Of a stretch of 64,000 nucleotides of DNA, positions 1 through 60,286 are shown piece after piece. The notes beneath the pieces are model-generated. The model did no database searches. It had not been told where the DNA came from and worked only from the letters and a program-made list of their open reading frames with translations. Positions within the stretch are counted from its first letter, which is position 1; each line of letters begins with the position of its first letter. The position numbers and the translations under genes were made by a program. The stretch lies in contig OZ076409.1 of assembly GCA_964187785.1 (NCBI GenBank), forward strand, positions 62,312,001 through 62,376,000, read 5' to 3'. This stretch comes from Amphiscolops sp. MND2022. Its lineage: Eukaryota.

Positions 1-835
1 ACAATTCGTCCCAAGCGACAATTCGTCCCAAGCGACAATTCGTCCCAAGCGACAATTCGTCCCAACCGACAATTCGTCCCAAGCGACAATTCGTCCCAAG
101 CGACAATTCGTCCCAAGCGACAATTCGTCCCAAGCGACAATTCGTCCCAAGCGACAATTCGTCCCAAGCGACAATTCGTCCCAAGCGGCAATTCGTCCCA
201 AGCGACACTTCGTCCAAAATGACAATTCGTCCCAAGCGGCAATTCGTCCCAATTTGGAAAGGCTATAAGTTCGTCCCATTTGTGAAAAGTGACAATTCGT
301 CCCAAATTGTTGGCTTGATTAGCTAATTACCAACCTTTTCAAGATTCAAATTCAAGAAAACCAAATCGTTCTAAAAGTAGAAATTTGCATTTTGTATATT
401 GCATTTTACGTACTAGACTTGAAATACCGAAGAATGTGAGAGAAGATTATTCGGTTTGCCATAATGGGGTGCTATTAATTAGTGTTAATTGTTGGTACCA
501 GCCTCTAAGTCTTATATTTACGGATTCGTTATTACAAAGGTATAAATTGGCAATTAAATAGGGGACGAATTGCAGCTTTTAATAGAAGGGACGAATTGTC
601 GCCATTCCAACGTGACATGCACAGCGGATCACTACAGTGACCTTCAGCCATACCGTAAAACATGCGGACTTAGACAGAGGCGCAGGCATTGTTTAGCAAG
701 AGACTCTAAATGCTGTCATTTCGAGTTGAATAGATTTGTGAACATATAATACCAAAAAAGGTTGACGCTTGGGACGAATTGTCGCTTTTTGGAATTTGTG
801 ACGAATTGTCGTTTGTGACGAATTGTCGCTTTACG
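1..835. mobile_element. Foldback/Mutator-type MITE whose arms are tandem 17-bp units (ACAATTCGTCCCAAGCG); left end lies outside the window
   Basis: About 14 tandem 17-bp units at 1-253; inverted copies (GGGACGAATTGTCGCT) at ~560-600 and 768-835; same family as 37580-38056. Confidence 0.8.
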
Positions 836-3217: not shown

Positions 3218-6200
3218 ATGAGTGGAAAGATGAGTTCAAGAGAACCGCTTTGGGCTAATACAACTCTGGATTTTAGCAAGATCCAGTATGTGGGATTCGA
3301 TCTCGATAATACTCTGGCAAAATACAGGTAAATCTCTTCAAGTTTGAGTTCCAACCTATTTGTGAAAACATGTGAATGAAAACATGGACTTGTGAATATC
3401 TGTTTCTTAAAAAATACTAAAACTTTCCGAGAACATTGAAAAAATATACAGAAAACATTTCACCATTGCCGACAAATTTTCCTTATATTTTTCTAAAAAT
3501 CAAACTCCATTCTGATTTATCCGAAATAAAGTTTTTAAAAATCTAAACTTGGCATTCTATGTAGGTGGCCAGTGTTCAGTGAGACTTTGTTTGTTCACGC
3601 ACTGGAAGCGATCGTAGATGACGGGGGATATCCAAAAGAGCTGGCTCACTGCAAATATGACGTCACGTTTCCAGTCAAGGGAATCTGGTTCGACACCAAA
3701 TTTGGAACTTTCCTCAAAATTGGCCCCAATGGGGACATTCTGAAATGCTTGGTGGGGTTTGAGGAGAAACATAGTGACGAAATTGAGGATTTCTATTCGA
3801 ACAAGTCAATTGCCATGTCGGGTAAGAGCTTATGATACTTTCTATTAGCCGAGAAAAAACAATTCGGTAAAACAAATTTAACTGCTTCATTTTATCGTGT
3901 TTTTTTTTCTCTTTTTGTCTTTCAATTTTTTCTAGGATATACATATACGATGCGTAGGAGGTTTCCACATGAACTGGAGAACAATAGAATTAAAGACAGC
4001 TAATTTCGCTGCCAAAAAGTTTCAGATTGAGATTTTTTTCCAGATACGATTTCGACAAAATGTTTCAGGGGCAAAAAATGTCTCCAATGTTTATAGGAAG
4101 GTCAAAACTTGTGTATCAGAATGTATCTTCCAGTCGGAAACCTAATTAAATTTACAAAATTTATCTCAGCACCTGTTTATGAATTTTTTTTAGAAATTTC
4201 CGAACTCCCTCGTGCAAAACTACTGTTCGTAACGAAAACTCCAGATAGGAAGTTTGTAGCCTTGACACTGTTCTACAACTTTTTGCAGAGACAATTTCTC
4301 TGTCGAAAATTTTTGAAGTATGCGTTTTCTTTATTTTTGTTATTTGCAAGGGTGTAACTATATTTTTTTGCTCACTAGGTTTCAAATGTGAGAAGATATT
4401 TTTGTCATTTCGGACATCGAGGATATGCTTATAAGGATAATTTTGCCTTCAGATCGTATCTATGTTTTCAACACCTCATTCCAAATGCCGGAACTGATGT
4501 TCTTCGCAACAGTGATAGACTTCCTGCGAAGGGAAGACAGAAAACAAGAGAGGCTGTCTGACCTCGGCGTGTTTGTTCACGACCAGTTCAAACCGTTTCC
4601 GAATCTGTTCAGGGACATGAGAAATGCTATTGATATTGTGCATGACGGAGGCAGGTTCAAAAAACAAGTGCTGGACAACTTGGACCTATTCTTGGATGAC
4701 AATGGAGAAGTTGCTAATCTTCTGCAATCGCTGAAGGTTTGTCTGAGTTTTTTTGAGCTTGCGAAAAGAGATCTGCTTTGAATCGCCCATCTTTTTTATG
4801 CACACGAAATTATAAATTGAAAATAATAACCCAGGAGCAGTTGGTAATAATTGGTGAAAGTGTGTGTTTTACAGCAAAAAACTAACTTATTAATAAACAG
4901 ATTACGATGCGTGACTGAAACCCAATTTACCGGGATGTGTCTCGTAATGCTGACGTGTACAGACAAAAGCGCCCCAGTCAAAAGCGCCCATTTTACACAG
5001 TCAAAAGCGCCCTTATGCAAAACGTCTTACTAATTTTTGAGTTGATTTGACCGCCACTAATTAACCTTAATTGAAGGTGTTCAATACAAAGTTAACTCAC
5101 TTGGAACGCCAGATTTGACATTTTCACACCTAACAAATCTCAATTGAAAGGTTAATACTCAAACGGCTAATTTTGGCATTTCTGAACGAACTATATCAAT
5201 TTTGTTATTGAATTAGTTTGTGAAAACACTGGTTTGAGATGAAATAGTGTGCGCTTTTGACTGGGCGCTTTTGTCTGGGGCGCTTTTGTCTGGTAACCAA
5301 TGCTGATCCTGGGTGATACGTTTTTCTTCATCTTCCTTCACAATTCAGGGGAAATGATTCCAATAACTGGTAACCTAGACTAAAATTGGTGTCTCAGAAG
5401 TTCTCATCATTGGTTAATTGGGAAGTATGAATAGCTATCTGACTGAAATTCAATTATGATAAGATTCAAACTCAGAAATGCAAATAGGCAGTTGCCATGG
5501 AAAATCTCCAACATTTTTCGAAGACATCAATGTATTATCAGCTCATTTCTGTTCCAGGCAGCAGGGAAGAAAACTTTCATGGTGACAAACTGCAACTTCG
5601 ATTACAGTAACAAAATAATGAGATACTTGTTCTCAAATACCGATATCTGCTGGGAAGAAAACTTGCGTGAAAAGTGGGTAAATGCCTTCGACATCATTTT
5701 CACCCAAACCAAGAAACCCAAATTCTTTTCGGGTCAAGGCAACCCGCTCAGTGCTATTGACACTGAAACCGGATTGAGTGTACCATTAGAGTGTGACATC
5801 AAAACGGCACTGAAAACATCGGGCCATGTTTTTCGAGGTGGAAGTGCTGCTGATTTCGAAGAAGCCATGGGTAAGTCAGCGCATTTGCCGGTGCTTTCTA
5901 TAAGTATGACTATTGTGACTAATTTTTCAAGACAAACGTCCAATGAACAGTTTACAAGTCTCCCTAGTTGAAAGCGCTCGAAACTTTTCATGTTTTTAGT
6001 CGGCGTTTTCGAAGAAAAACCCTACTCTTGCAGTGGCTAGTTTTTAGTCGGCGCTGTATGCTTTTAAGGAAAAATGCCCGACTATAGCAGTGACCTTTTT
6101 AGTCGGCGCGTTTTCCTTTTAAGAAAAAGCGTTTTCCCGACTATAGCAGTGACTGTTGTTTTTTAGTCGGCGCTTTATCCTTTTAAGGAAAAATGTCCGA

Positions 6201-9200
6201 CTATAGCAGTGACCTTTTTTTTCTTCAGACTACAATCCTCACACTGATCGGTCCACTTTTTAGAAACAATCCTGAAACCACCTGAGCACCTGAGGCCAAG
6301 TCCCCCCCCTTTGGATTTTTTTCGGCACTGTGTGACTTTTTTTGCGAAAATTTTTTAATGTCCCCAAAGGGTCCCCCTTCGAGTTTTTTGATATTTTGCA
6401 ACGGAATTTATGTTAGTAAGTCCAGAAGGGTCCCCCTTTTACATTTTTCGGCACTACGCGACATTTTTCGAAAGAAAAAAAATTTCAAAAATTTCAAGTT
6501 TTTTTTCCAAAAAAATATTTTGCGCATTTTGAGCCTTAGATATGGCGCCGACTTTAGACGTTCTCGTCTTGTTTCTTCAGACCACAGAACTCACACTGGT
6601 CGGTCCACTTTTTACAGAAACTACTATAAAACTATTCAGGCCAAGTCCAGCCAAGACAAGTTTAGTGCAAATTTTCATTTTTGACTTTTTTAACGTAACC
6701 TACAAAACCGGATGAGACGAAAGGGTAAATAAGTACTACTAAGTAAGTACTAAACTAAATAAGTTCAACTACTAAATAAGTACTAAACTACTGGACCGCT
6801 AAAGGCAAACGGGGAGCGCATTCATTTACTTTTTAAACGTTACAACATACAAGCCCGGACGGGACTAAAGTTCCCCCCCCCTCTTTCGATTTTTTTTCGG
6901 CGCTGTGAGACTTTTTTTCGAAATTTTTTTAATGTCCCCAAAGGGTCCCCCCTTTGAGTTTTTTGTTATTTTGCAACAGAATTTATGTTTATAAATCAAA
7001 AAGGGTCCCCTTTTACATTTTTCGGCACTGTGCGACATTTTCCGAAAGAAAAAAAATTTCAAAAATTTCAAGTTTTTTTCCAAAAAAAATGTTTTGCGCT
7101 TTTTGAGCCTTAGATATAGCGCCAACTTTAGACGTTCTCAGTTCGTTAGTTTTTTCGTCAGTTCAACGCTTACTTTCTGTGCATTATGCACTTTTGCCAT
7201 ATGTACTTAGTACTTCAATTTCAACGCATCCAAAGCCTTTAACATGAGATAAAGAGTCATTCCAAAGCAGAAGGGTCCCCTTTCCACTTTGTTGACACTA
7301 TGAGACTTTCCCCTTTTTTTTGGCACTGTGAGACTGTTAAAATTTCTATTTTTTCCGAATTTTTTTAATGCTCCAAAGGGTCCCCCGTCAATTTTTCGAT
7401 ATTTTGCAACAGAATGGATGGTCAAAAAATCCCTTAGGGTCCCCCATTTTACATTTTTTGGCACTATGCGACTTACCGGAGACTTCAAAAAAAATTTCGA
7501 AAAAAATCGGAAAAATTTTTTCCTCAATTTTTACTTTTTTGAGAACTTTTGTTGTCTCCAGTTGTAGAAAAAGTGGTTTTCGAACGTTATTGAGCCTTAG
7601 ATATGGCGCCGACTTGGGCCGTTCCTGGCTTGTTATAGGTTGCAATACAAATTTATTAGGTTTTTCGGAGCTGCTTAGAGAAGTTTTCATGCTCAATATT
7701 TTCATGATGCGTCACTGATTTTTCAGGTATATATCAAGATTCCTCCAAAACAGGTTTTTAGAGCAACATCAAGGAAATAAAAGAGAAATCACCCACGGAC
7801 TTTTGCAGATTTTCGCACTGGAATTTGTACAACTGGAATTTTTTTCAGGGGAAAAACTGTTTTTGCTCGCAAATTGTTGAAAAACGCAATATTCATTACT
7901 TTTCGAGTTTGGAAAAACAAAACACTTTCATTTTGAAGTTCTAAACATTTTTTTCAGGGAACTACTTTGAGAACGATAAAAATGGGTGCTATTTCGGAAC
8001 AATGCATGACAATGTTTTCAAGTCACAAGAAATGTTTCTTTTAATTGTTCGAAGCGTCTTTAGTCGGATGATTATTGAGAATATTACCCGACTATTAGAG
8101 TTGATTCTCCTCGTTTTTTTTCAATCCAAGCGATTTGACCAGAAAGTTCAACAAACGTTTTACAAATTATTGAAATCTTGAACTGTGCCATTTGGCCCAG
8201 CACGCGATGTCTTAATATTTGCCGTTATATCCGAAGTAAATTGCGCTTTACTAGAAAAAAAAGTGGATTATCGAACCTGATCTTTTTTGATTTTTTGCAA
8301 ACTAAATTTGAATTTTTGACGTTACATCCGATGTAATTGATATTTCAGGTGAGATTAAAACAAAAATCACTTCCATCCTCAGAAAGGTCCCAGCATTGGG
8401 TTTTTTTTGGTACTGTGAAGTTGAGACTTTAATCAAAAGAGAATCCTTGACGCTTCGAAGTATTGTTACTAATTTTTATCCGGGGTGCCGACTTATGCTG
8501 TTCCCGGCTTGTTTGCTATCATCGTTTCGCACCGACTCCCGCGTAATCACTTGTCTGTGGAACACTAACATTAATTTTTATACTATTTTATTACATTTAA
8601 AAGGGTATCTAGAACCTCATGCAATTTTCATGGTAAAAACCTGTTGAAAAAGAAACCAACATGCTCTTAAAAAAGTTTCATGACACTTAATTTCAATCTT
8701 AGTTGGTTTTCAATATTTTCGAAAGTAATCATCTCGCCGAAATTGTCGCAAATTCAAAAAAAAGTTTTGAAACACCAAAAGGTTGCCCTTAGTGCTCGGA
8801 AAACGCTTCAGAAGTTCGGATATAGCTGAGGCAAATGCCAGCACTTTTTTCGATCCTTTGCTTCCTCCTCAGTAAATCCGAAATTACCTTGGATATAACG
8901 TCTAAAATTCGGATATCGCGCTTACTTTAGATTTTACGTCAAAAACTTGGATAGTTTCGAAAAAACTATTGGTGGATATCTACTGAGAAAACCTAAGATC
9001 AGACAAAAAATGAGACATTTGAACAATCTCATAGTGTCGGAAAATGTAAAGGTGGGCCCTTTGATATTTTTAGACATCCGTTCTGTTGCAAAATATCAGA
9101 GAAATATTGAAGGCGGACCTTTTGAAAGCAATAAAAAGTTTTTGGAAAAAATTTCACAGAGCCGGAAAAAGGTAAATTTCAGAGTGCCGAAAAAAATGAA

Positions 9201-11066
9201 TGGGCACAAGTTCATATTACTGTTTGAACTTCGCTGGGTAATCGTAATCCTGTATCCCATTTTAGAAGTAACCGACAGATCTGCAATTCTCTATGTTGGG
9301 GATCACATTTTTGGAGACATTCTGAAGTGTAAAAAAGACGCTGACTGGAAAACTCTTCTGATAGTTGAGGAATTAGACAAGCAAATCACCAAATGGGAAC
9401 AAAGCCAAGATGCCATTAATGACTTGAAAAAGATCGAAGCTGAGAAGAAACGTTTAGAACTAGAAACAGTCATGTCCTTAGAAAAGAATCCTAGTTCTGG
9501 ATCATTTTATGAATCCAAGACATTGAACAGCTGCGGAACCCTAGAACTGAGTTCGATGACTATCAGAGATGTTAGTTTCGAAAACTTGGAGCAGCAAGCT
9601 CTTGCTAAGACCAAGGAGGTAGACTCAATTCATGGAAAGATGGGTGGAATTTTCAAGAGTGGTATGAAAGAAACTCTATATTCGTTCCAGGTTAGATTAG
9701 AGATAAGTTTTATATAACTCACTTATTCAATTCTTGCATATATGTACCATTTGGGTCTATCATGTCATCGTGGTATTTCAAGTTTCAGAGCTAGTGATGT
9801 ACAATAGTGTTTTGAAAAAATGATATCGTTGATATCGTTCCCAACCTGTTGTGACGCTTTTTTGCTCCTGTTTAAAAATCTCATTCCGAAAGTTGTGATA
9901 CTTTTAGATTTTGCCTACGACCCAAAAAACTTTCTTCTCTAGAATCGAATGGTAACACAAACTTCACGAGATTGGTGTTTCTCATTTTGAGGGAAAAGTG
10001 TCTGAAAGTTTGCCATAAAAGCAGTCTACTATAACATATTGATAAATGACCTCTATTTTGAAAAAAAAATCAATATAAGCATTGTCACAGTCCGAAAAAA
10101 ACTGACCACGGAAATGAACTTCTTTGAAAAAAATGCCCATATCGAAATAACGTCAATAAAAATTACTATAACGTAGTTATTGTATCCTCTAATGTCCTGA
10201 ATGCAAGAGCTAAGTTGAGCAACGTGTAATTACTAGCAGCAGCTTGTTCTGACGAAGGCTGTCCTCGAGGGGTTCGAAGCAAATATAAAAGTATAACTGA
10301 TCGAAAATGAATTTTTTAGTCGGCGTTTTTTGTTTAGCAAAAATGCCCGCCTCTTACAGTGACCTTTTTTTCCTCCAGACCACAGACCTCACACTGAATG
10401 ATCCACTTTTTACAGAAACTACTAAAGCCAAGTCCGGCCAGCGGGAACTTAGTGCAAAGGGTCCCCTCTTTCATTTTTTACTTTTTAACGCAACCTACAA
10501 AACCGGAAAAGACTAAAGGGTCCCACTTTCAATTTTTTCGGCACTATACGACTTTTTTTCAAAAATTTTTAAATGTCTCCATGCACTGAATCATATGGTT
10601 CCATGCGTGGAAACGCATGAATGTTATGGTTCCATGCATCGAATCGTTGGAATTATGTTGATAATATGGTGCTATGTATAGAACTGCATGGGAACCTCGT
10701 GAATTTGGATCCGGGTATACCACTAAACATAGTCCATTTTCTGGATCTCCAATTAAACTTAAAAATTCTTCAGTGTGAATTTGTTTTTTTGTTTGACTTG
10801 AATATGGTAATTGAACACTCACTCTGTTGATCATTGTACTAATCTTCAATATCTTTCTCGTTCAGACTCGGAGCTACGCAGATATCTGCGCCAAGAGTTG
10901 CCCTAGTCTCCTATCATACAATTTAGCGGATCATCAATTCGAGACTTCTCAGATACCGTTATCAACTCCAAAAGAATCACCAGAGAGTGACGACGGAAAG
11001 GAAATGAAAATGGTAGCTGACGAAATGGAGAAAGTAGATGAACAAAAGAGTATTTTCATCATCTGA
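3218..11066 (+). CDS. NT5C2: Cytosolic purine 5'-nucleotidase (cN-II, HAD superfamily), ~529 aa; exons 3218-3327, 3565-3821, 4453-4736, 5558-5870, 9266-9690, 10866-11066
   Basis: All introns GT-AG and phase-compatible (1590 nt total). HAD motif I GFDLDNTLAKY, GYPKEL..FPVKGIWFD, FNTSFQMPE, motif II TFMVTNC, motif III KKPKFF, motif IV LYVGDHIFGDILK..WKTLLIVEEL, RSYADIC, all colinear with cN-II. Confidence 0.92.
4955..5298. mobile_element. Mutator-type MITE with 14-15-bp subrepeats in inverted arms, in NT5C2 intron 3
   Basis: CAGACAAAAGCGCCC repeats at left and GGGCGCTTTTGTCTG at right; 9-bp TSD AATGCTGAC (4946-4954) / AATGCTGAT (5299-5307). Confidence 0.8.
5994..7635 (+). mobile_element. Cluster of Helentron/DINE-1-like (HINE) non-autonomous elements in NT5C2 intron 4
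   Basis: Four tandem 5' ends (TTTTAGTCGGCG...CCCGACTA hairpin) at ~5994, 6040, 6097, 6160; three 3' ends (GAGCCTTAGATATGGCGCCGACTT...CTTGT) at ~6572, 7140, 7635. Confidence 0.7.
8058..8513 (+). mobile_element. HINE-like element
   Basis: 5' TTTTAGTCGG...CCCGACTA; 3' GCCGACTT...GTTCCCGGCTTGTT. Confidence 0.6.
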
Positions 11067-12260: not shown

Positions 12261-12499
12261 TGTTGTATTCTCGGTTTAATATGGTAAAAAGGTTCTTTAT
12301 CTAAGATAATAAATTCGTATCTTCTTCAGCAACTAATCTATAGTATCAATCTGAAGTACAATGATCAATGTTCTATTGTACAACACAAAATGTAGTAAAC
12401 TCAAATTGACAGTAATTAGAGTTTTATGTTTAACAACAATAGTATGCTCTCTGTCTAGGTTTGTAGTTTTGAAGGTCATGATATCTGCATGATATCACA
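12261..12499 (-). repeat. 3' LTR of the Gypsy element
   Basis: Direct repeat of 17982-18220 and adjacent to the PPT. Confidence 0.95.
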
Positions 12500-15400
12500 T
12501 TCCCCCCTCTTCGGAGTTGTCCTATGGGGGTTTGTTGTAGTGGCCGTATGGTACGGATTTCTTCGTTGTTTTTCCGCATTGGACGGTCATTCTCCATCTC
12601 ATTTCTCTCCGCTGTTTCCGCTGTTGTTTCCTGTAATAAATTACCGTGGTTAGTTAATTTTTTCTTATTGTTACTAATGTGGTACGGTATTCCGCCTAGT
12701 TTTTCGGTTTGTTTTGCAAAAGGTAGTCTATTGGATCTTCTGACCGGTTCTATCGGTTTTTCTGTTCTATTTTTTCCTTTATAGCTACCTTGTTCCGGTG
12801 TCAGGTTAGTTTCATTGGGGTGGAGCTGGAGTTCATCTTCGATGTTGACTTGTATCGGTTTTCCTTCCGCTTTATTGTAGCATTCGAAGTCGTCGTCGTC
12901 GGATATAATGCTGAGGTTTAAATTTGCCGTGTTTTTGTTTGGTGAAGTAAATTGTCCCTTGTTGTTTCTGGGTATTTCTTTTCTTTTCGACCAGTCCTCG
13001 CTTCTTTCATAGTTTGCGATGTTTTTCGGTGTCTCTTTCTTGCTGTAGATGCAGGGTGCTCCGCTGGTGGTTGCGTTGTCCAGTGTTTTGGAGCAGGTGG
13101 GTTGGTCTGCAGTGTTTTGGCGGGTGTTGATCTTCTTTGCCGGTGTTGTTGTTGTTTGCTGAAATGGTAACGGGTTGGATATTAATTTCCTGTGGATAAC
13201 TTTGTTTTTATCCGTTGTCACGGTGTGTCTTGTTCCAGATACAGCGGTTTGTATTTTATTTTTGAATTTACTTTCCATGGATAATTTTTTGTAGTTTTTT
13301 TCGTAGAATTTGAAAGGATATTCAAATTTACTTACCGCACTGGTCGGTTTTTTTGTTTGGGAGAATGTCATCCCTCGTTTGTATCTTGGTTCGGCTATCT
13401 TTTTCTTTGACATTACCAGATGGTCCGTGATTTGTCCGGTTGAGTTTCTGGTGATATACACCGAAAGATCTTTGGAATCCACTAAAATAGAATTTTTTAG
13501 GTTAGACAGTTTGGTTCTTGGTGTCCGTCCGAAGTGCAATTCAAACGGAGTTTTCTTTGTTTCTGAATGTATTGTAAATCTTAGGACATATAATGCTCTA
13601 TTTACGCTTTCACGAAGATTTTGGTTGTCTTCTAAATTTGCCAGTGTCAGGTTCTTCAACGATTGGATTGTGCGCTCGACCAATCCGGTGCCAGTGTGTA
13701 GATTTGCCGTACCGTATATGCGGTTGATATTATGCGTCTTGCAGTATTCTATGTATTCTTTGGAGATAAAAGCGCCGCCTTTGTCCAATTTTATTTGTTT
13801 CGGTACTCCGTATACGTTTGTATATTCATCCAGAAATGAAATTACGGTTTCGTGGTTCGTGTTTTTACATATTTTTGCTACGGGCCATCGGCTATTTTTA
13901 TCCACCGCAATTAGTATGAACGGATTGTTTTGCAGTTTTTTATTGTTGAGATTTCCCGTAAAATCGATTTGTATTTCTTCACCGGGTGTTTTTGGCGGTT
14001 CAATTTTTGATTTTCGGTTTGGGGTATTTGGAATTTTAGATTCTTACCGGCGTTGAGGCAGGCTGAGCAGGTTTTTGATTTTTTCTCGATATCTTCCCGC
14101 ATATTCGGCCACCAGAATATTGCTGCGTCGTTGTACATTTTGTTTATCCAGGGGTGTCCAAAATGTAGTGCATTGAGTGCTGCGTAGCGTAGTGATTTTG
14201 GGATTACGATGCGGTCATCAACCAGTATGATGCCCCAACGGTGTGTCAGTTTCTTGGCTACGGTTCTGTAGTTCTGCGGGATTTGGTCCAGTTTGTTGTC
14301 CTCGATGCAGCAGTTTAGTTCGATGAGATCGGGGTCAGCGGCCGTCTCCTTGATTATTGTCTCCAAGTCTAGCATGAAGTCCAGTTTTGCCAATCTGACA
14401 TTATCTTCTTGTTGTCTGTTGCGCTTCGGTTTTTCTTCGACTACGCGGTTAATTCTCACGTAGTGTACGGCGATTTCTTCGATTGGCCCGTCTCTGTATT
14501 CTTGGACTGGTATTACTGGGTAGGTTCCGGGTTCGTGAGTGGCTACTGCTTCCTCCGAGTTATTTGAGACGGTGGATTCTGCATCTCGGTTGGTTTCGTT
14601 TCCTGGGGCCGGTTCGTTTCTCTCGGTTTGTTGTTGTTCGGTATTTTGTCCCTGGGGGATATCGTCCCCAAAGTTGTTTTGGAAATATCCTCCGCCGATA
14701 TGTTGTTCTCTGATCTTTTGTCTCAGTTGAATGTCGATTCGTTTTATTTCTCTTCTTTCGTCTTCTTCCGGTCTTCTCGGTATGTAAATTTCTCGACCCA
14801 AATTCTTATTGAAATGTGGTCTCATTACACCCGGTCTCGCCAATTGTATTCTTCTTCTCACAAGTTCCGTAGTTTCAGGTGATTTGTCTCTTGCATTAAC
14901 AATGGCCATAATATCATCATCTGCACCCCAATGGTGTCGTAATTGTCCGTCTGTACAGAGGAAACGTGTGGTATTTTCATTGTTATTCATTTTTAAACAA
15001 TCAGTATTGGATGAATGCTGTTGTATGCGGTAATTAGAATCAATATGGCTTTTGTTTGTTTGGTAGCGTCGCGTGTCAATTAGCGAGCGCGTATCACGCA
15101 TGTTTGCTTCGGTTGCCGTGGTCGCGTCTTCTGATTGGTCGAAAATCCGTCCTATTCGGGCGTTACCGTTGCTAGTTGCGCGATGGCGTTAATAACAATC
15201 TTTTCTTCGTAATTTGCTTCCGGTTCTGGATTTTCGGTAAGATTTCGGCTGATAAAGTCCGTGAATTTGATTTCTTTGCCGGCGGTGTGTTTTAAATAGA
15301 TGTCAAAGTGGTTCAATCTGTCTAACCATCGTGTTAGTCGCGCACTGTATTGTTTATTTGTCTTGTTTCTCTTCAGGAGGGGTTCTAGTGCTTGATGGTC

Positions 15401-17922
15401 CGAAAATAATTGGACTTGTTTGCCATATAAATGGAATCTGAATCTTTCCAGGCCCCATACGACGGCTAGTAGTTCTAGTTCTCCGATAGAATATTTTTTT
15501 CGGCATCATTTAGGTAGCGGCTGGGAAATGCTATCAGTTTTAGCTCTCCGTTGCCTTGTTTTTGCCAGAGTGCTATTCCAAGGCCGGTTTTGCATGCGTC
15601 GGTTGTGACGATGTTTTCTTTGTTTCCGTTGTAATGTGCCAGACAGGGTAGTGATGTTAGTTCTTGTTTTATCTTGTTGAAATCCGAATTTCGATTGGTT
15701 GTCCATTCCCATTTCGTTCCTTTTTTGAGTAGTTGTCTCATGTTGTCTGTTTTCTCGGATAGGTTCGGTATGAATTTCGCAAAATACTGTATAGCTCCGA
15801 GGAAAAATTTTAGTGTTTTGGCGTTTGTTGGTGGTTCTAGTTTGTTTATCGCATCGGTCTTTTCTTTGTTTGGTCTAATTCCATCTTGTGATATCGTATG
15901 TCCGAGCCATATTGTTTCTTTTTGGTAGAATTTTGACTTCTTTTTGCTTGCTTTGTAGCCTTCATTTTCCAGTTTTTTTAATACCGAATATAGTTTTCGG
16001 GTGTGTTCTTCTTTGGTTCCGCGTGTGACAATTATGATGTCGTCTAACCAAACTGGTGTTTGGTGGCCCAGGGTTCTGTCTATTTTCTCTTGGAAAATCG
16101 TTGGTATGTCAGCGGGACCGTAAAATCCTTTTAGGAATCGGTAGTATCCGTTTATTTTCTCTCCTGTCATCGCAAAGTTGCAATGTTTGCTTGTCTCGGG
16201 AGCCAGTTTCATTTGTCCGTATGCGTAGTCGAGATCTACTACGGATATCCAAAATGGGTCAAGGTCGTTTTTGGATAATTCGGCTGATATTTGGTTTAAT
16301 AGTTCTTCCATATTTGGCATATGTGGCCTTTTCTTTACACAGCTGTCATTGAGTTTTCGGGCGTCTAGCGCGATTTTTACCGTCTTGTCTTTCTTTACCG
16401 TAATTACTACGGGTGATACAAAACAATCTTCTTCGATTGTTTCTAATCGTTCGAGATGTCCGGATTTTATTAGTCGGTCCAATTCGTTTTTTACATCTTT
16501 TTGTAAATGGTACGGTATCGGTCTGGCTTTCTGCTGGATGGGGTAACATCCTGGCTTTATTTGGATTTTCACTTCTATATTTTTCATTGTGTGGTTTGTT
16601 TCGAATAGTTTGTTGAATTTCGCGTAGATAGTTTCTAATTGGTTGGTTGATTCGTCCAATTGAATTTTGTTAATGGTGATTGGTAAATGTTTCAGCCAGT
16701 TCACGCCTAATAGTGGAGTGATGTCGTTTCTTTTTGTAATTAAGATTGGTAATTTTGTTGTCTTCCCGTTATATTCAATATCGGCCCATATTTTCCCGAG
16801 GAATTGGATTTCATTTTTGGTTACGTCTTGGTATCTTTCTTTCAGGGGTTTTATATCTCTTTGGTTGTAGAGTTTTGGGTTGTTTGGCATTATTGTAACT
16901 GGAGAACCGGTATCAATGGTGAAATTTTGATATTTGCCGTTAATTTTTAGTTTGATCCCGTAGTTGTCATTTTCATCCGGTAGTACTCTATTGATTTGCG
17001 TGATTTGTTGTATTTCTTCTGGTTCGCTTTCTTCTTCTTCGGTGTATGTTTCTTCCAGGTAGTTAATTTTTTGCTTTCTTGTGTTCTCATTGGTTTTGCT
17101 ATGGCAAACTCTTGCGAAGTGTCCCATTTTGTGGCAATTGTTGCATTCTGCCGTTTTTGCCGGGCATTTGTGCGATGGTGACCAGTTTTGCTGTCCGCAG
17201 AAACCGCAATTGTTGTTTTTTGCTATTATTTCGGTATTTTTCCGGTGGTTTCGTGGTTGTATTTTCTGTATGGGTTCTTCTTTTATTTCTTTTTCTTTCG
17301 CCAGTGCTGGTGGTATTGTTGATTGCTTGTGTCTCTTTTCATAACTGTCTTGGGTTACCAGGTCCATGGTAGTTTTCAGATTCAGGGTTTTTTCGCTGAT
17401 GAGTTTTTCCCGTAGTTTTTTATCGGTGATACTGGTGATAAATTTTGATATTAGTAGGTCTTCTTGTTTGACATCTTTGAATTCGCAGTTCTTTTCGAGG
17501 GATACTAATTTTCGCCAGTGTTCTTCCGGGGTTTCATTATCTTCTTGTTTCGCCCAGAAGAAATCTCCTCGGCTGTGGTAAGTTTTTCGCTTTGGCATGT
17601 AGTAATCCTTGAATAGTTGGATGAGTCTTTCTCTATTGATAGTGTCGGGATCTGTGTTAAATTCTCCTTTGGTGATCGTCTCTATTGCCGATGTTCCTGC
17701 TTCCCAGATGAAATCTTGTCTTATTTCCGGTTCTTTTGTTGTCCAATCATTACTTGTTGGGATTGTTTCCCCGGATAAAGCCGGTTTTATATCGATATCA
17801 TGGATTCGTTTTATGTAGTGCCGTAGTCGTTCGGTCCATTCTTTGGGGGTGTATAATTTTTTTCCATCAAGTCCGGTATCTTCGAGGTATGGTAGCAATA
17901 TATTACTCTTGGTTGTCGTCAT
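12430..17922 (-). pseudogene. Gag-Pol polyprotein (two CCHC knuckles, aspartic protease, RT, RNase H, integrase), broken by three single-base frameshifts (~15495, ~15164, ~14013)
   Basis: CGFCGQQNWSPSHKC and CNNCHKMGHFARVC; FTIDTGS; DLDYAYGQ...WLDD; RNase H TTDAC..ELELLAV..SDHQAL; HHCC (LHFGHP..CSAC); integrase QIDF..D-35-E (DKGGAF...GLVER). Confidence 0.93.
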
Positions 17923-17962
17923 TGATATTTGGTCGGTTAAAATTGAATTTACGGATAAAAGT

Positions 17963-17981
17963 AAATCTTGCTACTGCGCCA
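17963..17981 (-). promoter_or_regulatory. Primer-binding site, probably tRNA-Ser
   Basis: TGGCGCAGTAGCAAGATTT directly after the 5' LTR is complementary to a tRNA 3' end ...CTGCG-CCA typical of Ser tRNAs (identity inferred). Confidence 0.7.
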
Positions 17982-18220
17982 TGTTGTATTCTCGGTTTAA
18001 TACGGTAAAAAGGTTCTTTATCTAAGACAATAAGTTCGTATCTTCTTCAGCAACTAATCTATAGTATCAATCTCAAGTACAATGATCAATGTTCTATTGT
18101 ACAACACAAAATGTAGTAAACTCAAATTGACAGTAATTGGAGTTTTATGTTTAACAACAATAGTATGCTCTCTGTCTAGGTTCGTAGTTTTGAAGGTCAT
18201 GATATCTGCGTGATATCACA
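17982..18220 (-). repeat. 5' LTR of the Gypsy element
   Basis: Direct repeat of 12261-12499 and adjacent to the PBS. Confidence 0.95.
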
Positions 18221-19058
18221 CAGGCAATTTTGAGAATTTCCACTGTAAGCAGCCTTTCAGAACGTTTTGAGAATTTGCCCCACAATTTTGGCAGGACTTT
18301 TCCGTTGTAGTAGTAGTAGTTGCGGCTTGTTTGAGCCACATGCCAGGCGAAAAACACAGAAACCAATACGTGGTTTGATACAGACTAGATTAAGATTGAA
18401 GCAAGAATCAAGGATTTCAAGGACATTTGTCAAAGTGCCAAATAATCTAAAGACCTTTTAGAAGATTCAAAAGTAGTCTAAAATGTTAAATTAACAAAAA
18501 AAATCTAACGCCCACTGACTACCGGGACAAGTTTTTTGTGAAGTGTTTCAGTGACAACATAGTTTTACATGACTTGAGGATAGTTGTCCAAGTGGGCACT
18601 GTTTTGGGCCGTTTCAGTCTCTTTTACTTGGAAGATAGTTTGCTTGACGAAACCATCAAGAAAAAAGTTCATTACGACGCATAACCCTACACTTTTAGTG
18701 CGGCTCAAAGTTGGGCCGTTTGAGCAGTGGAATCCTGGGCCAAGCTTCAAAACATACTAACCGCAAAGAAATGAAAGTTTTCATTCAAAAAAATGTCATC
18801 AAAAGTTTCATCAAAAAATGAAATCCAAAAGTACTACAGTTTCATTCTTTACTTTTTATGCAAACTTGGAAGTGTTGTTGTTGGTCTGTTTATTAGGCTA
18901 TACTCGAGCTTTGATATATTGTTGCTGAAGGCATAATTCATCGCTAATAATACCCAGGTGCTCATCTGTTGGAACTATCCATAATAAACTTTTGGCTTAA
19001 GCAAGAGATGAGCTATCCTTCAACTAAATGTCTCTGGCAAAGTTTATCCTAGACGATT

Positions 19059-19658
19059 CTAACCAAACCGTGTGTCATGGACGTTTAGGTCAGGGTAATC
19101 ATCGTTCAATTGGTTCTCATACTGTCCGTTTCTCAAGCAACTCTTCGCGTTAAGATTTCGCTGAACTTCGGAATTTAGTTCCGGTCTCTCGGTCGGAACG
19201 TCCCATCCCTTTCTGGTCCCATGTCCTGGTCTGGCCATGATAACATTTTGGATTTGAGGAAGTACTTGAGTACTTATCGCATCGTTTATAGCTCTCTGTA
19301 TTTGGACACTCACAGAATTCACCATCTCGTCCATTTCCCGTGAAATACGAGAGTTCAATTCGCTAGACAATCTGTTTATTTCAGCGCTAGAATCACCTGT
19401 GATAGAATTGCGGTCACATTCGGCATTCATCCTAGAGTCAATATTTCTCTTGGATCTACCTCCGTTTCCGTCTTCATTATCAGACTCATTACTTGCAAAA
19501 CTCCTAGATCTCCTAGGTAAATTGCTATTCAAGCTACCTTCTCTTTCTTGTGCACCAAAATGGTTTTCGCCTAACATGATATCCAGATTTTCAATATCGG
19601 ATAACATTTCAAGTCCTCTAGACTTTCTCGCTTTCTTTTGCTTTCTAGTGGTGGGCAT
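19059..19658 (-). CDS. 199-aa ORF inside the solo LTR, probably the N-terminus of a Gag-like protein; its stop comes from flanking DNA
   Basis: MPTTRKQKKARK start, helical segment AEINRLSSELNSRISREMDEM; frame open across the LTR end at 19073; TATAAATA at 19779-19786 upstream. Confidence 0.6.
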   Translation of the reverse strand: MPTTRKQKKARKSRGLEMLSDIENLDIMLGENHFGAQEREGSLNSNLPRRSRSFASNESDNEDGNGGRSKRNIDSRMNAECDRNSITGDSSAEINRLSSELNSRISREMDEMVNSVSVQIQRAINDAISTQVLPQIQNVIMARPGHGTRKGWDVPTERPELNSEVQRNLNAKSCLRNGQYENQLNDDYPDLNVHDTRFG

Positions 19659-20983
19659 TGAAACAACTCCGAATCAACAATAAATTAATCAATACGGAAA
19701 TAACAGCGTAGCCGTTTGGAAATCAATTTTTCTAGAGTCGTATAATATAAATTGTGTCCCGCTCAGGCTAAACACCGGTATTTATACCCCTGAGCGGGTG
19801 ACACTCACATATTTTATATATTTTCATCCAAGATTGACATCGTAAGGTATGTAATGCACTTGATTTTTACATATCTCTGGTATTTAACAGGTATGGTTTT
19901 GAAAGGTATTTGCACCATGAGAACTTCCGTTTACATATTTCCTATATCATCGGAAAGCATCAATCACATATTTCTGTGAAATCCTGATTGGGAGAATTCC
20001 TGACATATTTGTCTCCCGAAATGTAACATCAAACAATCAACATAATGGTAAATATCCTTAACGGTACTTCAAACAACATATCTATTCTACATATTATCAT
20101 TGAAATGTCAACAAATGTTAAGCTTGTTGTTGGAATGCGAGACTCGTGGCACTGGTATGCAGTGTTAGCACGTGCCACCACGTGGCTATAGGTCAACGTA
20201 GGGGGAAGCAATTCAAATAATACATGTCTAATCTATTTAAATATCACTGCATCACTAGATAAGGATATTTCCCAAAAGGGCCGAAATTGGCCAAATCCTG
20301 GTTAATAGCACAATACTAAGGGGAGAAAGGATAAAAGGCCTTATTCGGCATTTGATCAACATTTAGTTCATTTGGTCCGTTGAAGGGTACGTTGGTATTA
20401 TTTCAATATTAAAACACTTCTAGAATAATCCCCAATCAATATGGTTAATTATGGGGTACAAGTAATACAGCATCATTCGTTACGTTAAGACGGCCTAAAC
20501 CGGCCATTTGACCAAAGTACAAAACAATCCGTGGACATTAAGTTAATTGGCCATATTCGGCCGCTACCAATCAAAGCCATATTGCACTCGTGAATTGAAG
20601 CGCTGTGATTGGTTGGGAGAATGACCTCAAGTGACGTTTTTGGATTATCGCTGAGCGTCACTTGAACTCGTTTCCTATACCGCTTTACAGTTGCTTCTAT
20701 TAGTACTGCTTTTGATTTAATTGATTTACGTCTTAACTGCACTTTTACAAAGTAGCCTAATTTGGATATTTCCAAATTGTACAACTTTTAACGGACTAAT
20801 ATTAACTTCATCCAAATATAAAACTAATACATGAATACACAAAACAACAACTAACGTTGAATAAAAACGAGTTTCTAAGGTCCATAGCCTGCATTCAGTA
20901 TATTGGTAGTGTACTTGGTGTCGGGTTTTGTTCTCCTGCCGCTGTAGTATAATTATTTCCGTCACAGGCGGCAGCCTGCGACA
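19073..20983 (-). mobile_element. Solo LTR (1911 bp) of a second LTR-retrotransposon family
   Basis: Termini TGTC...GACA; exact 5-bp TSD CCGTG at 19068-19072 and 20984-20988; no RT or integrase inside. Confidence 0.8.
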
Positions 20984-21152
20984 CCGTGTAAACTAGTCTC
21001 CTTTTTGAAAATTGCAAAACTTTATAACTCTAGGAAAATGAAAATTATAGAAGCTTTGGATAATGTACAAAATTTTACTATCAAAATTTACAGAAAATTG
21101 GTATCATTTCAATGAAATTTATTAACTTGTAAAATTGGAAAAACTGTTCAGC

Positions 21153-24100
21153 TCAGTGACGCGGATTGTCGATGTTAACTTCTGACGACATGAACCCTTT
21201 GTTGTGGTAACTTGAACTCAAGTCCGTCGTGTCCAACTGATGGTTGGTACTTTGATTATTTATAACCAGACTATCAGTAGCAATAACCAGGGTATCATTC
21301 TCGTCATCTTCCTCGACCACATGTCTTCGGGGCCCGTTTGCAGGCACGTGACCCCAGTTTGGGTAACTTCGGACGCGAGAGTGAGGCTGACTGTTTGCCC
21401 CTGAAGGGGGTCCGTTTCGATTCAATGCTTGGATGCTCTGTAACCTGAAAGAGTCGCAAAGTTCTATTCAGCGCATTGCTCGACAGTAAAACAACCGTGT
21501 ATTGTGTATCCAGCTGTTTTTACGTCACTTTCATGTATTCGTCATTACGTACTACGTCATTCGCGTATTTCCCAAGTCACTTTTTTGGAATTTTTCTTCG
21601 AAAGGGCTCTCAAAATCTTTATTCAGATCTGCCTTTTAAAATCAACTGTCCATCGAAACCATAATTGTTCATTTGCCTTTAGTATTTTTTCTTTCGATTA
21701 CTCGGTCATTTCTGATCAGGTATTTGGTAATTCATCTCATCATTGATCCGAATTCGCCTAAATTATTTACAATTATTCTTAGGTAATTTTCATTATCATA
21801 AATTCATCATTTTCACCCCTGTTTTGATATTTTATTCCAATTTCAACTTTTTCATGATCAATTGCCCCTAATTAGACCTGTTTGGTGCATCAATAACTGT
21901 TGTAACGTAGTTTTTTAGGCGAATTAAAAGCTATCAGCGAAACTCAATTTAGGTCGAAATTGTGAACGGTTGAAAATGCAATGGGTTGGGTCGAAGTTGC
22001 ATAGGACAAAATGTCCTGACACCACATCTGTTGTAATCCTTTCTCTAATCATTCTTTAGAACAAAAGTCAACTTACAGTTCCCAGCAGTAATACTTTTGA
22101 GAACAAAAGTCAACTTACAGTTCCCAGCAGTAATACTTTTGTTTGGAATGGTGAAAAGACCTCACATTAGACACATTTGCTGATGGAACAGTTCAAAAGT
22201 CTACTTGAATGTCCCAAAAAGACCCTACAAACAACTGGTTTCATTTTGGTGTTGAGTTTTCTCTTTTTCAAGTGAAGACAGTTGGAAACCATAAAATTAA
22301 GAGGCGAGATTCACGTTCTCCACATACTTTTGGAGATTGGATACCAAAAAATGGAACATAGGTTCGCTATAACTTGTTGAATGCTACATAACCTCAGTTC
22401 TTCGCAATTTTTTCATTTCCAACGGACACTGCAATATCATTTACTGTACTTCTTGGAATGCAAGCCGCGGCTTGTAAATTTAATTTTTAAATCAAAGTGT
22501 TTTTCATTTTCTGGGGCGGCTTCTCGAAAAATGCGGTTATTCTCAAAGTACCTTGGCGGGGGAGGAGGTGTGCTCTGGTAGCGAGGAGGTCTTTCACTTG
22601 GATGGTCATCGCCCATTGAAGGGTGAGACCTCTGGTAGCCGTGATTGACGGCTCCAATATGATCCCTTTGTTGTGGCAAAGTGCTGTTTCTCTGATAGTT
22701 ACCTCGATATGACACTTCCAGGCTTGGTTCACGATACGATGGGGGTCTGGAATGGTTTCTGGACTCCCTGTACATACTTCCAGTTGGGGTCCTTGCTTTG
22801 GGTTCTGCTTCGTAAAGTTGCATTTCTGGGTTTTCCAAAGCGGCCGAGTGACTAAAAAATACTTCAAAGTTCCATAGGTTGTGTATCAAGAATCATGTTT
22901 CAGTTAATCGCTGAAAATCTAATTTCACAATGGAGAACTCGATGCGATAGCTTGATTCAGTTTTTGCAAGCGCAAAAGCTGTGTATTTTTTATATTTTGT
23001 AATTTTATTACAGAAAATAAAGATATTATAAGTCGGCGTTTTATGAAACAAAATGCGACTATTACAGTGGCTTTTCGTCGTGTTTTTTTTTCAATCCGGT
23101 CGAAGAAACCATTTCATGCAGAATGCTGACCTGTCTCAGATGTAAAGCCCGGTGGCCTAGTAATTGGAGCGTTAGCCGGGGAAGAAGAACTTGGGTTCGA
23201 AATCAGCACAGCTCTTTTTTGTTTTGATTTTGAATTATAGAAATAGCGTTTTTGAATATTACGTATTTACGAAATGATATAATCCGGTAACGTTTTCTTA
23301 AGAACTGTGAATCAGAAATTGGGGTCCGAATCTATGTAACGCGGCAAAGTCATCTTTTCAAAATGAAATGTACTAATTGCAGTTACTATTTTTGAATATA
23401 TAGTTGATATAGTGATATATTCCGGATATAACGTCGATAATACGCATGAGGCGTTTTCTTCTGATTTTTCCGCGTCTTGCCTATCAAAAAGTGGGGGTTT
23501 GAATTAATTCAACGCCGAGGTATTCAATTTCTTCAAATTGAGTGGAACTGAATTTCAGTTTCTGATATAAAGAAGACAACAATTACTTCGGAAATACAAA
23601 AATAAAATTCGGATATAACATATTTGGTTGTTGTAGACTTCTCATTCTTCAACCTTCGTTGAAGACATCCCAAAGGCCACCTTTTACGCTATCTATGATT
23701 TTACTTCTTTGAAGCAACAAGTGGAAACAAAAGGCTCTCAACTTTGAAGTACTTTGCGTATTTTGAGTCTTGAGCGGGATGCCAACTTATACCGTTCCCG
23801 ACTTGTTGAAATACATTTTTGTCCTCCGTGGGCATGATATACATTGTTGTTTTTCGTCCATATTTCATATGAGAAAGGCAAATATTTAAGTCAGCTGCGT
23901 TTTCTTGTACAAAACTTGCCATGTTCCAAATTTATATCCAAGTTAAAAGGTTTCAGGTTTTCATAGAATTCAACTGACGGAAATTTAGTATCATGCAATC
24001 TGTTTCTGTGGAGATTTTTGGACTTTTTTGGTTGACCTCAAAAACCAAGAATCACCCAAAAATGAACCCAAAAACGACAAAAATTGGTATTGCTAACGTT

Positions 24101-37579: not shown

Positions 37580-38056
37580 GGTTGGGCGACAATTCGTCCC
37601 AAGCGACAATTCGTCCCAAATTCCAAAAAGCGACAATTCGTCCCAAGCGGCAATTCTTCCCATTTTGAAAAGACGACAATTCGTCCCATTTGTAAAAAGC
37701 GACAATTTGTCCCAAAGTAATTAATTGATCAGCTAATTAACAACCTTTTGAAGATTGGTATCAAATATTTCAACAAATAACCTACAAGTGATTACATTTA
37801 AGCATTAAGTTACATTACATTTAAGACCTATTCATTGGTGTTAAGCCTCTAATTGCAATATTTCCGGATATATTATTACAAAAGTATTGATCGGCAATTA
37901 CATTGGGGACAAATTGCAGCTTTTAATAATTGAGACAAATTGTCGCTTTTTCAAAATGGGACGAATTGACGCTTGGGACGAATTGTCGCTTTTTGGAATT
38001 TGGGACGAATTGTCGCTTGGGACGAATCGTCGCTTGAGGCGAATTGTCGCTTTACG
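37580..38056. mobile_element. Second copy of the 17-bp-subrepeat foldback/Mutator-type MITE
   Basis: GCGACAATTCGTCCCAA repeats at left, inverted at right; internal sequence similar to 250-835; degenerate TSD sharing TGAGAT. Confidence 0.85.
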
Positions 38057-38059
38057 GGT

Positions 38060-38733
38060 GAGATGTGTTTACCAATGTGTTTCCCATCAGTTGCTGCAGA
38101 ATTATCAAACACAACTGAAGCACTCTTAGCCAGTCTTATTAGACTTGGACACGAGACTGCGATAGAAAACACAAAGCAGGATCCATTACAGAAAACTGTA
38201 TTAGGAGTTCTACTATCTGGGAAAAAGAAATCTCTGAATTATAACTATTTTAAGAAACCCATGATTGAGAAATCAGTCTATGATTGTATGGAAAAGTTTT
38301 CAGTTGTAGCTTTAGTCATCGTGTGCTTGCGATGAAACAATTTATATGAGCAATCAATTCATTCCTGCAAACTTTGCCAAAAAATTCCGTGCAATTGTTA
38401 CAAGCTATTCCATGTTCCCGAGTTTCCACTTTCATATCCATACGCGTACTAGCATTTCATGTATACGAGTTATAGCGATACTTATTTCATGTTTGATCCT
38501 GAAATAGTTCATTCGACTTCAAAATGCTGAATCATTGGCTCCTTTAGTTTGATTGATTTTCTTGTTTAGCGGGAAAGCTTCGCTTTGCGCGTGAGAGGTT
38601 GTCATTTTCAAGATTGATTAGATTGACTGAAACAGATTTCAACTGTTAAAAATCTCAAATTTTGGTATACTTCATTTTCTGCCAACTAATCTGCAACTTG
38701 GGATCTCATGAATGACGGAACCACCCATGTCCG
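38060..38733 (+). mobile_element. 3' fragment of a hAT-like element
   Basis: 38196-38733 is an inverted copy of 48927-49460; TSISCIRVIAIL resembles the hAT C-terminal dimerisation motif (S..CERxFS). Confidence 0.55.
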
Positions 38734-60245: not shown

Positions 60246-60286
60246 ATTCCCGGGTTGCATAAAGAGCCTTGATTCAGGCGACTGGG

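What the first reader, a model, noticed from the sequence alone, without database searches (positions are those of the whole stretch)
19059..20983. 1.9-kb solo LTR with its own protein ORF reading out through the LTR 3' end
Seen: TGTC...GACA ends with an exact CCGTG TSD, and an ORF starting ~585 bp inside the LTR that stays open to the last LTR base (...CAT GAC A|). Established: gag normally starts downstream of the PBS. Inference: in the intact element a TGG-starting PBS would supply the next codon (A|TG G.. = Met), so the U5 edge and PBS would be protein-coding. Every solo LTR would then be a promoter plus N-terminal coding cassette able to fuse to host sequence; here it gains only TRFG* from the flank.
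Basis: partly seen in the sequence, partly recalled or inferred. Interest (0 to 1): 0.75.

Follow-up and report, generated by a model that had tools for sequence, protein, structure and literature searches.

The report
Capsid gene starts inside terminal repeat
This 1.9-kb stretch is the leftover terminal repeat of an abundant animal jumping gene whose capsid protein's first 195 amino acids, including a helix predicted to self-associate, are written inside the repeat, so each leftover repeat keeps a gene fragment that runs on into host DNA and could, if expressed, make stub proteins; yeast elements show shorter forms of the same layout.

Summary
Observation confirmed. Window 19073-20983 (1911 bp, minus strand, CCGTG duplication) is a solo LTR. 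Its ORF is the first 195 residues of a 570-aa Gag. In 182 truncated relatives homology stops there, and 178 have a next residue allowed by an A-starting codon (control position 67 of 173), which fixes the LTR end to the base. Gag and truncated proteins on equal-length contigs are mostly each other's closest match (18 of 28), as 5'/3' LTR pairs would be. Pol is PR-RT-RH-IN, best solved match Ty3. The LTR-coded part holds a conserved helix predicted to form a trimer (0.78; best control 0.01). The layout is known: Ty1 (about 13 codons) and Tca5 (about 100, start unproven), both copia-type. New here: length, gypsy lineage, a predicted domain, and over a thousand truncated copies. No DNA of a full element and no RNA could be obtained, so PBS, promoter and host fusions are inferred. 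This scan noted the same layout before, in a 187-codon family of this genome and in other genomes.

The parts
19073..20983 (-). Solo LTR, 1911 bp, TGTC...GACA, of a Ty3/gypsy family
   Evidence: 3' end fixed by relatives; no internal gag and no pol of the family in the window by tblastn; host-like flank, not TGG, follows the 3' end
19068..19072 (.). 5-bp target-site duplication CCGTG, left copy
20984..20988 (.). 5-bp target-site duplication CCGTG, right copy
19073..19658 (-). gag codons 1-195 plus first base of codon 196, inside the LTR
   Evidence: 4 differences in 195 aa from the 570-aa Gag P0001 (sequences compared by eye)
19059..19072 (-). Flank-derived tail (T)RFG-stop
19563..19658 (-). 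Conserved basic N-terminal block, residues 1-32
   Evidence: mean pairwise identity 0.88 among 72 intact Gags, against 0.51 in residues 33-90
19236..19403 (-). Conserved amphipathic helix, residues 86-141; predicted parallel homo-oligomeric coiled coil
   Evidence: identity 0.82 over 91-140; the longest confident stretch of the model, pLDDT 70-81 by ten-residue block; trimer score 0.78, best control 0.01
19781..19786 (-). Candidate TATA box (TATAAA, LTR nt 1198), 128 nt before the ATG, no ATG in between (inferred promoter)
   Evidence: the region is kept in out-of-frame upstream extensions of relatives P0193, P0198, P0455; the downstream arm in P0337, P0367
19758..19798 (-). Perfect 10-bp inverted repeat (arms 19789-19798 and 19758-19767) enclosing the candidate TATA box
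19375..19380 (-). Only AATAAA on the sense strand of the LTR, inside the E-I-N codons of the helix (candidate poly(A) signal, weak)
   Evidence: E-I-N in 327 of 380 relatives but only 13 of 27 divergent representatives
19659..19698 (-). G/T-rich stretch (70% against 50% for the LTR) just before the ATG; possible poly(A) downstream element, i.e. start of U5 (inferred)
   Evidence: G/T-rich U5 starts described in PMC3601003 (passages)

Best explanation
This is a solo LTR of an abundant animal Ty3/gypsy retrotransposon family whose gag frame opens 586 nt before the LTR end, so the LTR itself encodes Gag residues 1-195 and, in full elements, the frame continues across the LTR end and the inferred primer-binding site into the capsid and zinc-knuckle domains. 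Likely working: U3 is about 1.2 kb; transcription likely starts about 25-30 nt after the TATAAA at LTR nt 1198; a leader of about 100 nt without ATG leads to the gag start; ribosomes would read through R/U5 and the PBS as in Ty1; Pol is likely made by a frameshift at the gag stop. The LTR-coded part is a basic N-terminus plus a helix predicted to self-associate, likely an N-terminal oligomerisation (matrix-like) domain of Gag. Because U5 is copied into both LTRs, every 3' LTR and every solo LTR left by LTR-LTR recombination keeps codons 1-195 and one A, and the frame runs on into whatever host DNA follows. Most such tails are short and probably by-products.
For: Shown: 246 longer relatives; of the best 120, 119 continue into Gag, 111 as MVTG. 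Full proteins carry a weak DUF1759 match (E about 1e-5, at or just under the cut-off) and a CCHC knuckle; language-model neighbours are zf-CCHC, Retrotrans_gag and Ty3_capsid clusters at 0.92-0.94. Junction located in 363 of 472 stored relatives: 181 continue as Gag, 182 diverge; 178 of 182 have I/M/T/N/K/S/R next (126 strictly A-only residues), against 67 of 173 and 58 of 159 at the next two positions; this holds in 28 of 30 copies only 40-59% identical. Junction at residue 195 in 66 and 197 in 6 of 72 intact Gags although the LTR part falls to 49% identity. 28 Gag/truncated pairs on contigs of equal reported length: 18 are the Gag's best match and 23 within the best three of 138. Natural frameshifted copies P0024 and P0084 link this Gag to a Pol; Pol order PR-RT-RNase H-integrase, best PDB match Ty3 Gag-Pol, E 3.8e-45. 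Helix trimer 0.78 against best control 0.01; runs agree in at least 88% of contacts, partner pLDDT at least 85; mark reached by 21 of 30 solved pairs and 0 of 23 single chains, on eukaryotes 17 of 29 (animals 7 of 16) and 0 of 30. Interface positions are more conserved than the others in 26 divergent copies (0.77 against 0.66, p 0.017).
Against: No DNA of a full element was obtained, so paired LTRs, PBS, spacing and primer tRNA are inferred from proteins; equal contig length is only a proxy for one contig, pairs were picked by eye, and 5 of 28 did not match. The capsid fold was not shown: model mean pLDDT 39.7, and a profile search of the PDB found only two weak nucleocapsid matches (E about 0.01). 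Selection on the LTR-coded protein is modest: interface contrast is not significant among the 72 intact Gags (0.89 against 0.82, p 0.12), hydrophobic retention 104 of 159 against 57% neutral (p 0.024), sequences not independent. The trimer job used three copies, outside the tool's calibration, and only 1 of 7 eukaryotic pairs without an older solved relative passed. All relatives are gene-caller predictions, and the copies come from unnamed contigs that may span more than one assembly or haplotype.
Confidence: 0.88

Rival explanations
1. The frame is open through the LTR, but Gag is really made from a later start (Met18, or the junction Met196, or after splicing), and the conserved blocks reflect DNA/RNA signals in R-U5 rather than protein.
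For: No expression data. Gene callers start 40 of 180 Gag-continuing proteins at MLS rather than MPT. The only AATAAA sits inside the conserved helix. Tca5 has the same open question in print. Met196 is almost invariant, though the LTR end and PBS force it.
Against: The MPT ATG is the first ATG after the candidate TATA box and starts 117 of 180. Register and length are held at 49% identity. Divergent copies change E-I-N to E-F-N or E-L-N, which loses AATAAA but keeps a hydrophobic residue. Conservation follows the helix face. A Met18 start would still lie inside the LTR.
Confidence: 0.08
2. Solo and 3' LTRs are expressed and their stub proteins (basic end plus helix, no capsid or knuckle) join full Gag through the helix and damp particle assembly: a copy-number brake that grows with the number of LTRs.
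For: 1024 short relatives of 109-349 aa against 246 longer ones; the stubs keep the whole predicted self-associating helix. Analogues: Ty1 p22 (abstract starts in listings) and RTL8, an N-terminal Gag-like fragment that enters and reduces PEG10 particles (abstract).
Against: Both analogues act through capsid domains, which the stub lacks. The family is very abundant (Pol clusters of 850 and 1547 members), so any brake is weak. Tails are random, many copies have decayed, and piRNA or chromatin silencing and poly(A) use in the LTR could prevent expression (general knowledge).
Confidence: 0.1
3. The 1911 bp are not an LTR but a chance TG..CA and 5-bp repeat around a broken gag fragment, or the start of a truncated element.
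For: 37 such configurations occur in this window. The 5' boundary was not tested against other copies. The flank beyond the 3' end matches Gag 196-216 at 6 of 21 residues, reached by 0.05% of positions.
Against: 178 of 182 truncated copies break at the same base; Gag/truncated pairs behave like 5'/3' LTRs; the flank has three stops in those 21 codons while the LTR part is 98% identical to P0001, and tblastn finds no further internal match.
Confidence: 0.03

Closest known systems
Ty1 of Saccharomyces cerevisiae (Ty1/copia, Pseudoviridae); PMC4974528 and PMC5454406, passages read
   Same: [quoted passage not shown]
   Different: Only about 13 codons precede the Ty1 PBS (my arithmetic from those numbers) against 195 here; copia against gypsy; LTR 334 against 1911 bp.
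Tca5 of Candida albicans (Ty5-like); PMC4139406 section 11 read
   Same: ORF opens deep inside the LTR (first ATG 382 bp into a 685-bp LTR, about 100 codons by my arithmetic) and runs through the PBS.
   Different: Copia group, single gag-pol ORF, low copy number with very few solo LTRs, start codon in vivo unclear. Here twice as many codons, gypsy, separate gag and pol, over a thousand truncated copies.
Ty3/gypsy (Metaviridae), including long-LTR lineages such as Osvaldo (LTRs 997-2055 bp, tRNA-Lys primer; PMC3286476 passages)
   Same: Pol order PR-RT-RH-IN, TG..CA ends, CCHC Gag, LTR length in the same range.
   Different: I found no report of gag starting in the LTR in the passages read. 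Lineage was not placed: no named reference sequences were available for a tree. My recollection that Ulysses/Osvaldo-type elements might do this could not be checked.
Truncated-Gag inhibitors: Ty1 p22 (PMC4599808, PMC4551931; abstract starts in listings) and RTL8 (PMC11684626; abstract)
   Same: A Gag fragment that could co-assemble with full Gag.
   Different: Those are capsid-domain fragments with tested activity; the stub here lacks capsid and has no evidence of expression.

Membership tests
Solo LTR | TG...CA ends with a target-site duplication on both sides | tested here: met
   (weak alone)
Solo LTR | No internal domain, PBS or adjacent polypurine tract attached | tested here: met
   No internal gag or pol of the family in the window; CACGG follows the 3' end; the purine run upstream is 14 nt away, not adjacent as in the neighbour element
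Solo LTR | The same sequence occurs as paired LTRs of full elements | tested here: inconclusive
   Supported by protein proxy only: 18 of 28 best match, 23 of 28 in top three; no DNA
Ty3/gypsy (Metaviridae) | Pol order protease, RT, RNase H, integrase | tested here: met
   P0474, P0475, P0488; tied to this Gag through natural frameshifted copies P0024, P0084
Ty3/gypsy (Metaviridae) | RT closest to Ty3/gypsy rather than BEL/Pao or retroviruses | tested here: inconclusive
   Best PDB match Ty3 Gag-Pol 3.8e-45, next foamy virus 2.4e-29; no BEL/Pao reference was identified among the hits and no tree was built. The weak DUF1759 match is a family I recall from BEL/Pao Gags.
Ty3/gypsy (Metaviridae) | Gag with capsid fold and CCHC nucleocapsid | tested here: inconclusive
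   CCHC motif present; Gag-like by language-model features; capsid fold not modelled with confidence
Ty3/gypsy (Metaviridae) | PBS complementary to a host tRNA 3' end, next to the 5' LTR | not testable with these tools
   TGG start inferred from Met-Val after the last A; no element DNA, no tRNA gene in the window
Ty1/copia (Ty1, Tca5) | Integrase before RT | tested here: not met
   it works like Ty1 in gag layout but is not a member
Ty1-type layout (gag begins in LTR, PBS coding) | Gag frame open from inside the LTR through the junction | tested here: met
Ty1-type layout (gag begins in LTR, PBS coding) | Translation actually starts at the LTR ATG | not testable with these tools
   no RNA or proteomic data available
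Truncated-Gag restriction factor (p22, RTL8) | Fragment is expressed, binds Gag and lowers particle yield | not testable with these tools
   only a self-association model

The most novel reading that the evidence does not exclude
An animal gypsy lineage has moved Gag's whole N-terminal oligomerisation domain into the LTR, so that every recombination scar is a self-contained promoter-plus-domain gene. The genome thus holds over a thousand stub genes with random host-derived tails that could act as a built-in, copy-number-dependent inhibitor of particle assembly and as a steady source of new fusion genes carrying a ready-made trimerisation module.
Probability: 0.12. Interest if true: 0.8.

Novelty: new variant of a known kind. 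Interest (0 to 1): 0.45.

Why it matters
It stretches the Ty1 layout from about 13 codons (about 100 in Tca5) to 195, in a gypsy family of an animal, and puts a predicted structured domain inside the LTR. The LTR end, the integrase site and the PBS are then all under double constraint (H/Y-D-M-V-T-G). It predicts an unusually long minus-strand strong-stop DNA of about 690 nt and a clash between translation and tRNA priming. It also matters for annotation: such LTRs yield hundreds of false 'orphan genes' of about 200 aa. If solo LTRs are expressed, this is a natural test bed for whether leftover LTRs can restrain their parent element or seed fusion genes.

Tried and rejected
No whole genome is held. 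DNA of relatives: one unrelated weak locus in metagenome contigs, none in viral or prokaryote contigs; 120 loci from a 14-base promoter-arm pattern were chance matches. Pfam on the 199-aa ORF: only Dehydrin, E 0.083. PDB profile search with the LTR-coded part: 0 hits at E up to 5; Atlas search with residues 84-146: best 0.75. Rfam over 18200-22500: 0. No tRNA in the window. Pol does not read into U3: 0 hits of 69 Pol proteins in the LTR. Folding scan: no stable structure over the AATAAA (z +1.1); lowest z at LTR nt 301-420 (-3.5) and 1741-1860 (-2.8) of 30 windows. Full-length Gag model too poor for a fold search, which was not run. First chance count missed overlapping matches and was redone. 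One misaligned row (P0156) was in the test and dropped. One search ended in an error after printing the figures used. Host: animal by Rpn10 (334 bits to a mammalian-type chain against 220 and 178); no names came with any record. My acoel guess is from memory and untested; two acoel genome papers (passages) only show that such genomes are LTR-rich. Literature: ten searches; phrase searches for gag beginning or starting in or within the LTR, upstream of or overlapping the PBS, or LTR-encoded gave no gypsy precedent, but match exact words only and miss most older subscription papers. PMC7197481, PMC7175516 and PMC11410931 (passages) added nothing. No supplements were read.

Full report
Observation. 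The element spans 19073-20983 (1911 bp) between two copies of CCGTG and has TGTC/GACA ends. A minus-strand ORF begins at 19658 and stops at 19059-19061; 195 codons and one A lie inside the element and the rest (T-R-F-G) comes from the flank. The ends and duplication alone prove little, since the window holds 37 such configurations. The ORF is not chance: 0 of 500 shuffles reach 195 codons.

What the ORF is. A search for longer proteins gave 246 relatives, mostly 570 aa. The best, P0001, differs from the window ORF at 4 of the first 195 residues. Of the 120 listed, 119 continue after residue 195 into a shared sequence, 111 as MVTG and 117 with Met first; the exception is a deletion copy. The continuation has a weak DUF1759 match and a CCHC knuckle and Gag-like language-model neighbours. 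Two natural frameshifted copies run from this Gag's end into a protease-bearing frame. That frame leads to Pol proteins of about 1700 aa in clusters of 850 and 1547 members, with the order protease, RT, RNase H, integrase and Ty3 Gag-Pol as best solved match. The family is therefore Ty3/gypsy-type. Gag normally ends ...ESKN (96 stored proteins) and the shifted copies read ...ESKKLTSPRL (2), which fits a frameshift at an A-run next to the gag stop (inference).

The LTR end, tested without DNA. No genome, runs or related contigs could be had, so I used the proteins. If the repeat ends after GAC-A, every copy followed by host DNA must have a next residue from a codon that starts with A. Among 472 stored relatives the junction was located in 363; 181 continue as Gag and 182 diverge. 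Of these 182, 178 have I, M, T, N, K, S or R next; at the following two positions the shares are 67 of 173 and 58 of 159. A few of the 182 are mislocated junctions and one is a cut Gag; none was dropped. The rule holds in 28 of 30 copies of 40-59% identity, so several families share it. Tails are unrelated, median 16 aa, longest 92. I then took 29 pairs of proteins with equal reported contig length, picked by eye; 28 were Gag/truncated pairs. In 18 the truncated partner is the Gag's best match among 138 truncated proteins (ties counted as best), in 23 within the best three, three pairs are identical over 195 aa, and 5 are unrelated copies. This is what 5' and 3' LTRs of one element would give. 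The window copy has no internal part on either side, so it is solo.

Internal control. The ordinary two-LTR element at 12261-18220 (239-bp LTRs, CAGGC duplication) also forms A|TG at its LTR/PBS junction, but reads M-A-Q-stop, has LTRs full of stops, and starts gag 60 nt downstream. The junction Met is thus automatic; the long open frame in front of it is the unusual part.

The LTR-coded protein. Among 72 intact Gags the junction sits at residue 195 (66) or 197 (6). Identity averages 0.65 in residues 1-195 and 0.91 beyond, with conserved blocks at 1-32 (0.88) and 91-140 (0.82) between variable linkers (0.51). The second block is the longest confident stretch of the structure model, a single helix, with hydrophobic periodicity near 3.75-3.9. 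Three copies of residues 84-145 scored 0.78 against a best control of 0.01; runs agree in at least 88% of contacts, partner pLDDT at least 85. The mark was reached by 21 of 30 solved pairs and 0 of 23 single chains (eukaryotes: 17 of 29, animals 7 of 16, only 1 of 7 without an older solved relative, 0 of 30 single chains), and the calibration held two copies only. This supports self-association and does not show it. No solved relative was found by sequence. Evidence for selection on the protein is modest: p 0.017 for interface against other positions in 26 divergent copies, p 0.12 in the 72 intact Gags, p 0.024 for hydrophobic retention, all on related sequences.

Likely mechanism (inferred). 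A TATAAA at LTR nt 1198, enclosed by a perfect 10-bp inverted repeat, lies 128 nt before the ATG with no ATG in between, and out-of-frame extensions of five relatives preserve parts of this region (9 extensions tested). U3 would be about 1.2 kb and R plus U5 about 690 nt, nearly all coding. The poly(A) site is open: either near the G/T-rich stretch just before the ATG (short R, as in Ty1) or after the only AATAAA, at nt 1604, which divergent families do not keep. Ribosomes would cross the LTR end and the PBS, so His/Tyr-Asp-Met-Val-Thr-Gly serve as protein, integrase end and primer site at once. Reverse transcription copies U5 into the 3' LTR, and recombination leaves solo LTRs; both keep codons 1-195. 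Whether they are transcribed into the flank depends on how the 5' poly(A) signal is suppressed, which is unknown.

Comparison with what is known. In Ty1 the PBS lies within GAG (PMC4974528, passages); with a 53-nt leader and the PBS at nt 95-104 (PMC5454406, passages) about 13 codons precede it. In Tca5 the ORF opens 382 bp into a 685-bp LTR, start in vivo unclear, few solo LTRs (PMC4139406, section 11). Both are copia-type. Long LTRs occur in Osvaldo-lineage gypsy elements (PMC3286476, passages). Six phrase searches found no gypsy element with gag starting in the LTR, but they are exact-word searches of an open-access library. This scan's own notes report the same layout in a 187-codon family of this genome and in gypsy elements of other genomes; they are unchecked and are not counted as support. 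Truncated Gags can inhibit their parents (Ty1 p22, listings; RTL8, abstract), but through capsid domains that this stub lacks.

Verdict. It works like Ty1 in gag layout, belongs to the Ty3/gypsy type, and is a new variant by its length, its predicted domain and its copy number. Architecture: confidence 0.88. A function for the solo-LTR stubs: about 0.1. Interest 0.45.

Noticed in passing
window 12261-18220 (minus strand): A second, unrelated two-LTR gypsy element: 239-bp LTRs 97% identical, CAGGC duplication, TGG-starting PBS flush with the LTR, gag-pol broken into three frames; 22-26% identical to the focal family's Pol.
   Followed up: partly
window 19011-19072: The flank read in the gag frame matches Gag residues 196-216 at 6 of 21 positions (0.05% of window positions reach this) despite three stops; probably chance.
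   Followed up: partly
P0485, P0488 (related Pol proteins): Related families carry a dUTPase domain between protease and RT; the focal family's Pol has a similar-sized gap there without a Pfam hit.
   Followed up: no
P0474-P0477, P0486: Pol has about 180 aa before the protease and a long low-complexity tail after integrase; four of the five shown end in a conserved R-G-G-K-Y-N-L-R-P-N-P motif.
   Followed up: no
window 19659-19698: T-rich stretch with an AG 8 nt before the gag ATG; could be a splice or trans-splice acceptor. Untested.
   Followed up: no
window 20564-20683 and 19124-19243: Two LTR stretches fold better than shuffles (z -3.5 and -2.8 of 30 windows); the first holds a 10-bp inverted repeat in U3.
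   Followed up: no
window 45666-46685 and 41108-41692: Tc1/mariner transposases: one intact 339-aa ORF in a 95-member cluster, one partial.
   Followed up: no
window 38225-38712 and 48947-49434: 488-bp inverted arms, 96% complementary, 10.2 kb apart, enclosing a 326-aa ORF with a weak HicB-like match (E 8e-4) and both Tc1 ORFs; possibly a large TIR element.
   Followed up: no
window 57486-58601; 5456-5971 and 9010-9717; 53368-55755: Host genes: single-ORF Rpn10 of animal type, 5'-nucleotidase exons, and a 795-aa ORF without a firm family.
   Followed up: partly
window 1-289, 51116-52194, 59679-60539: Tandem arrays of 17 bp, 22 bp and 284 bp; the 17-bp unit recurs as inverted arms at 37586-38052.
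   Followed up: no
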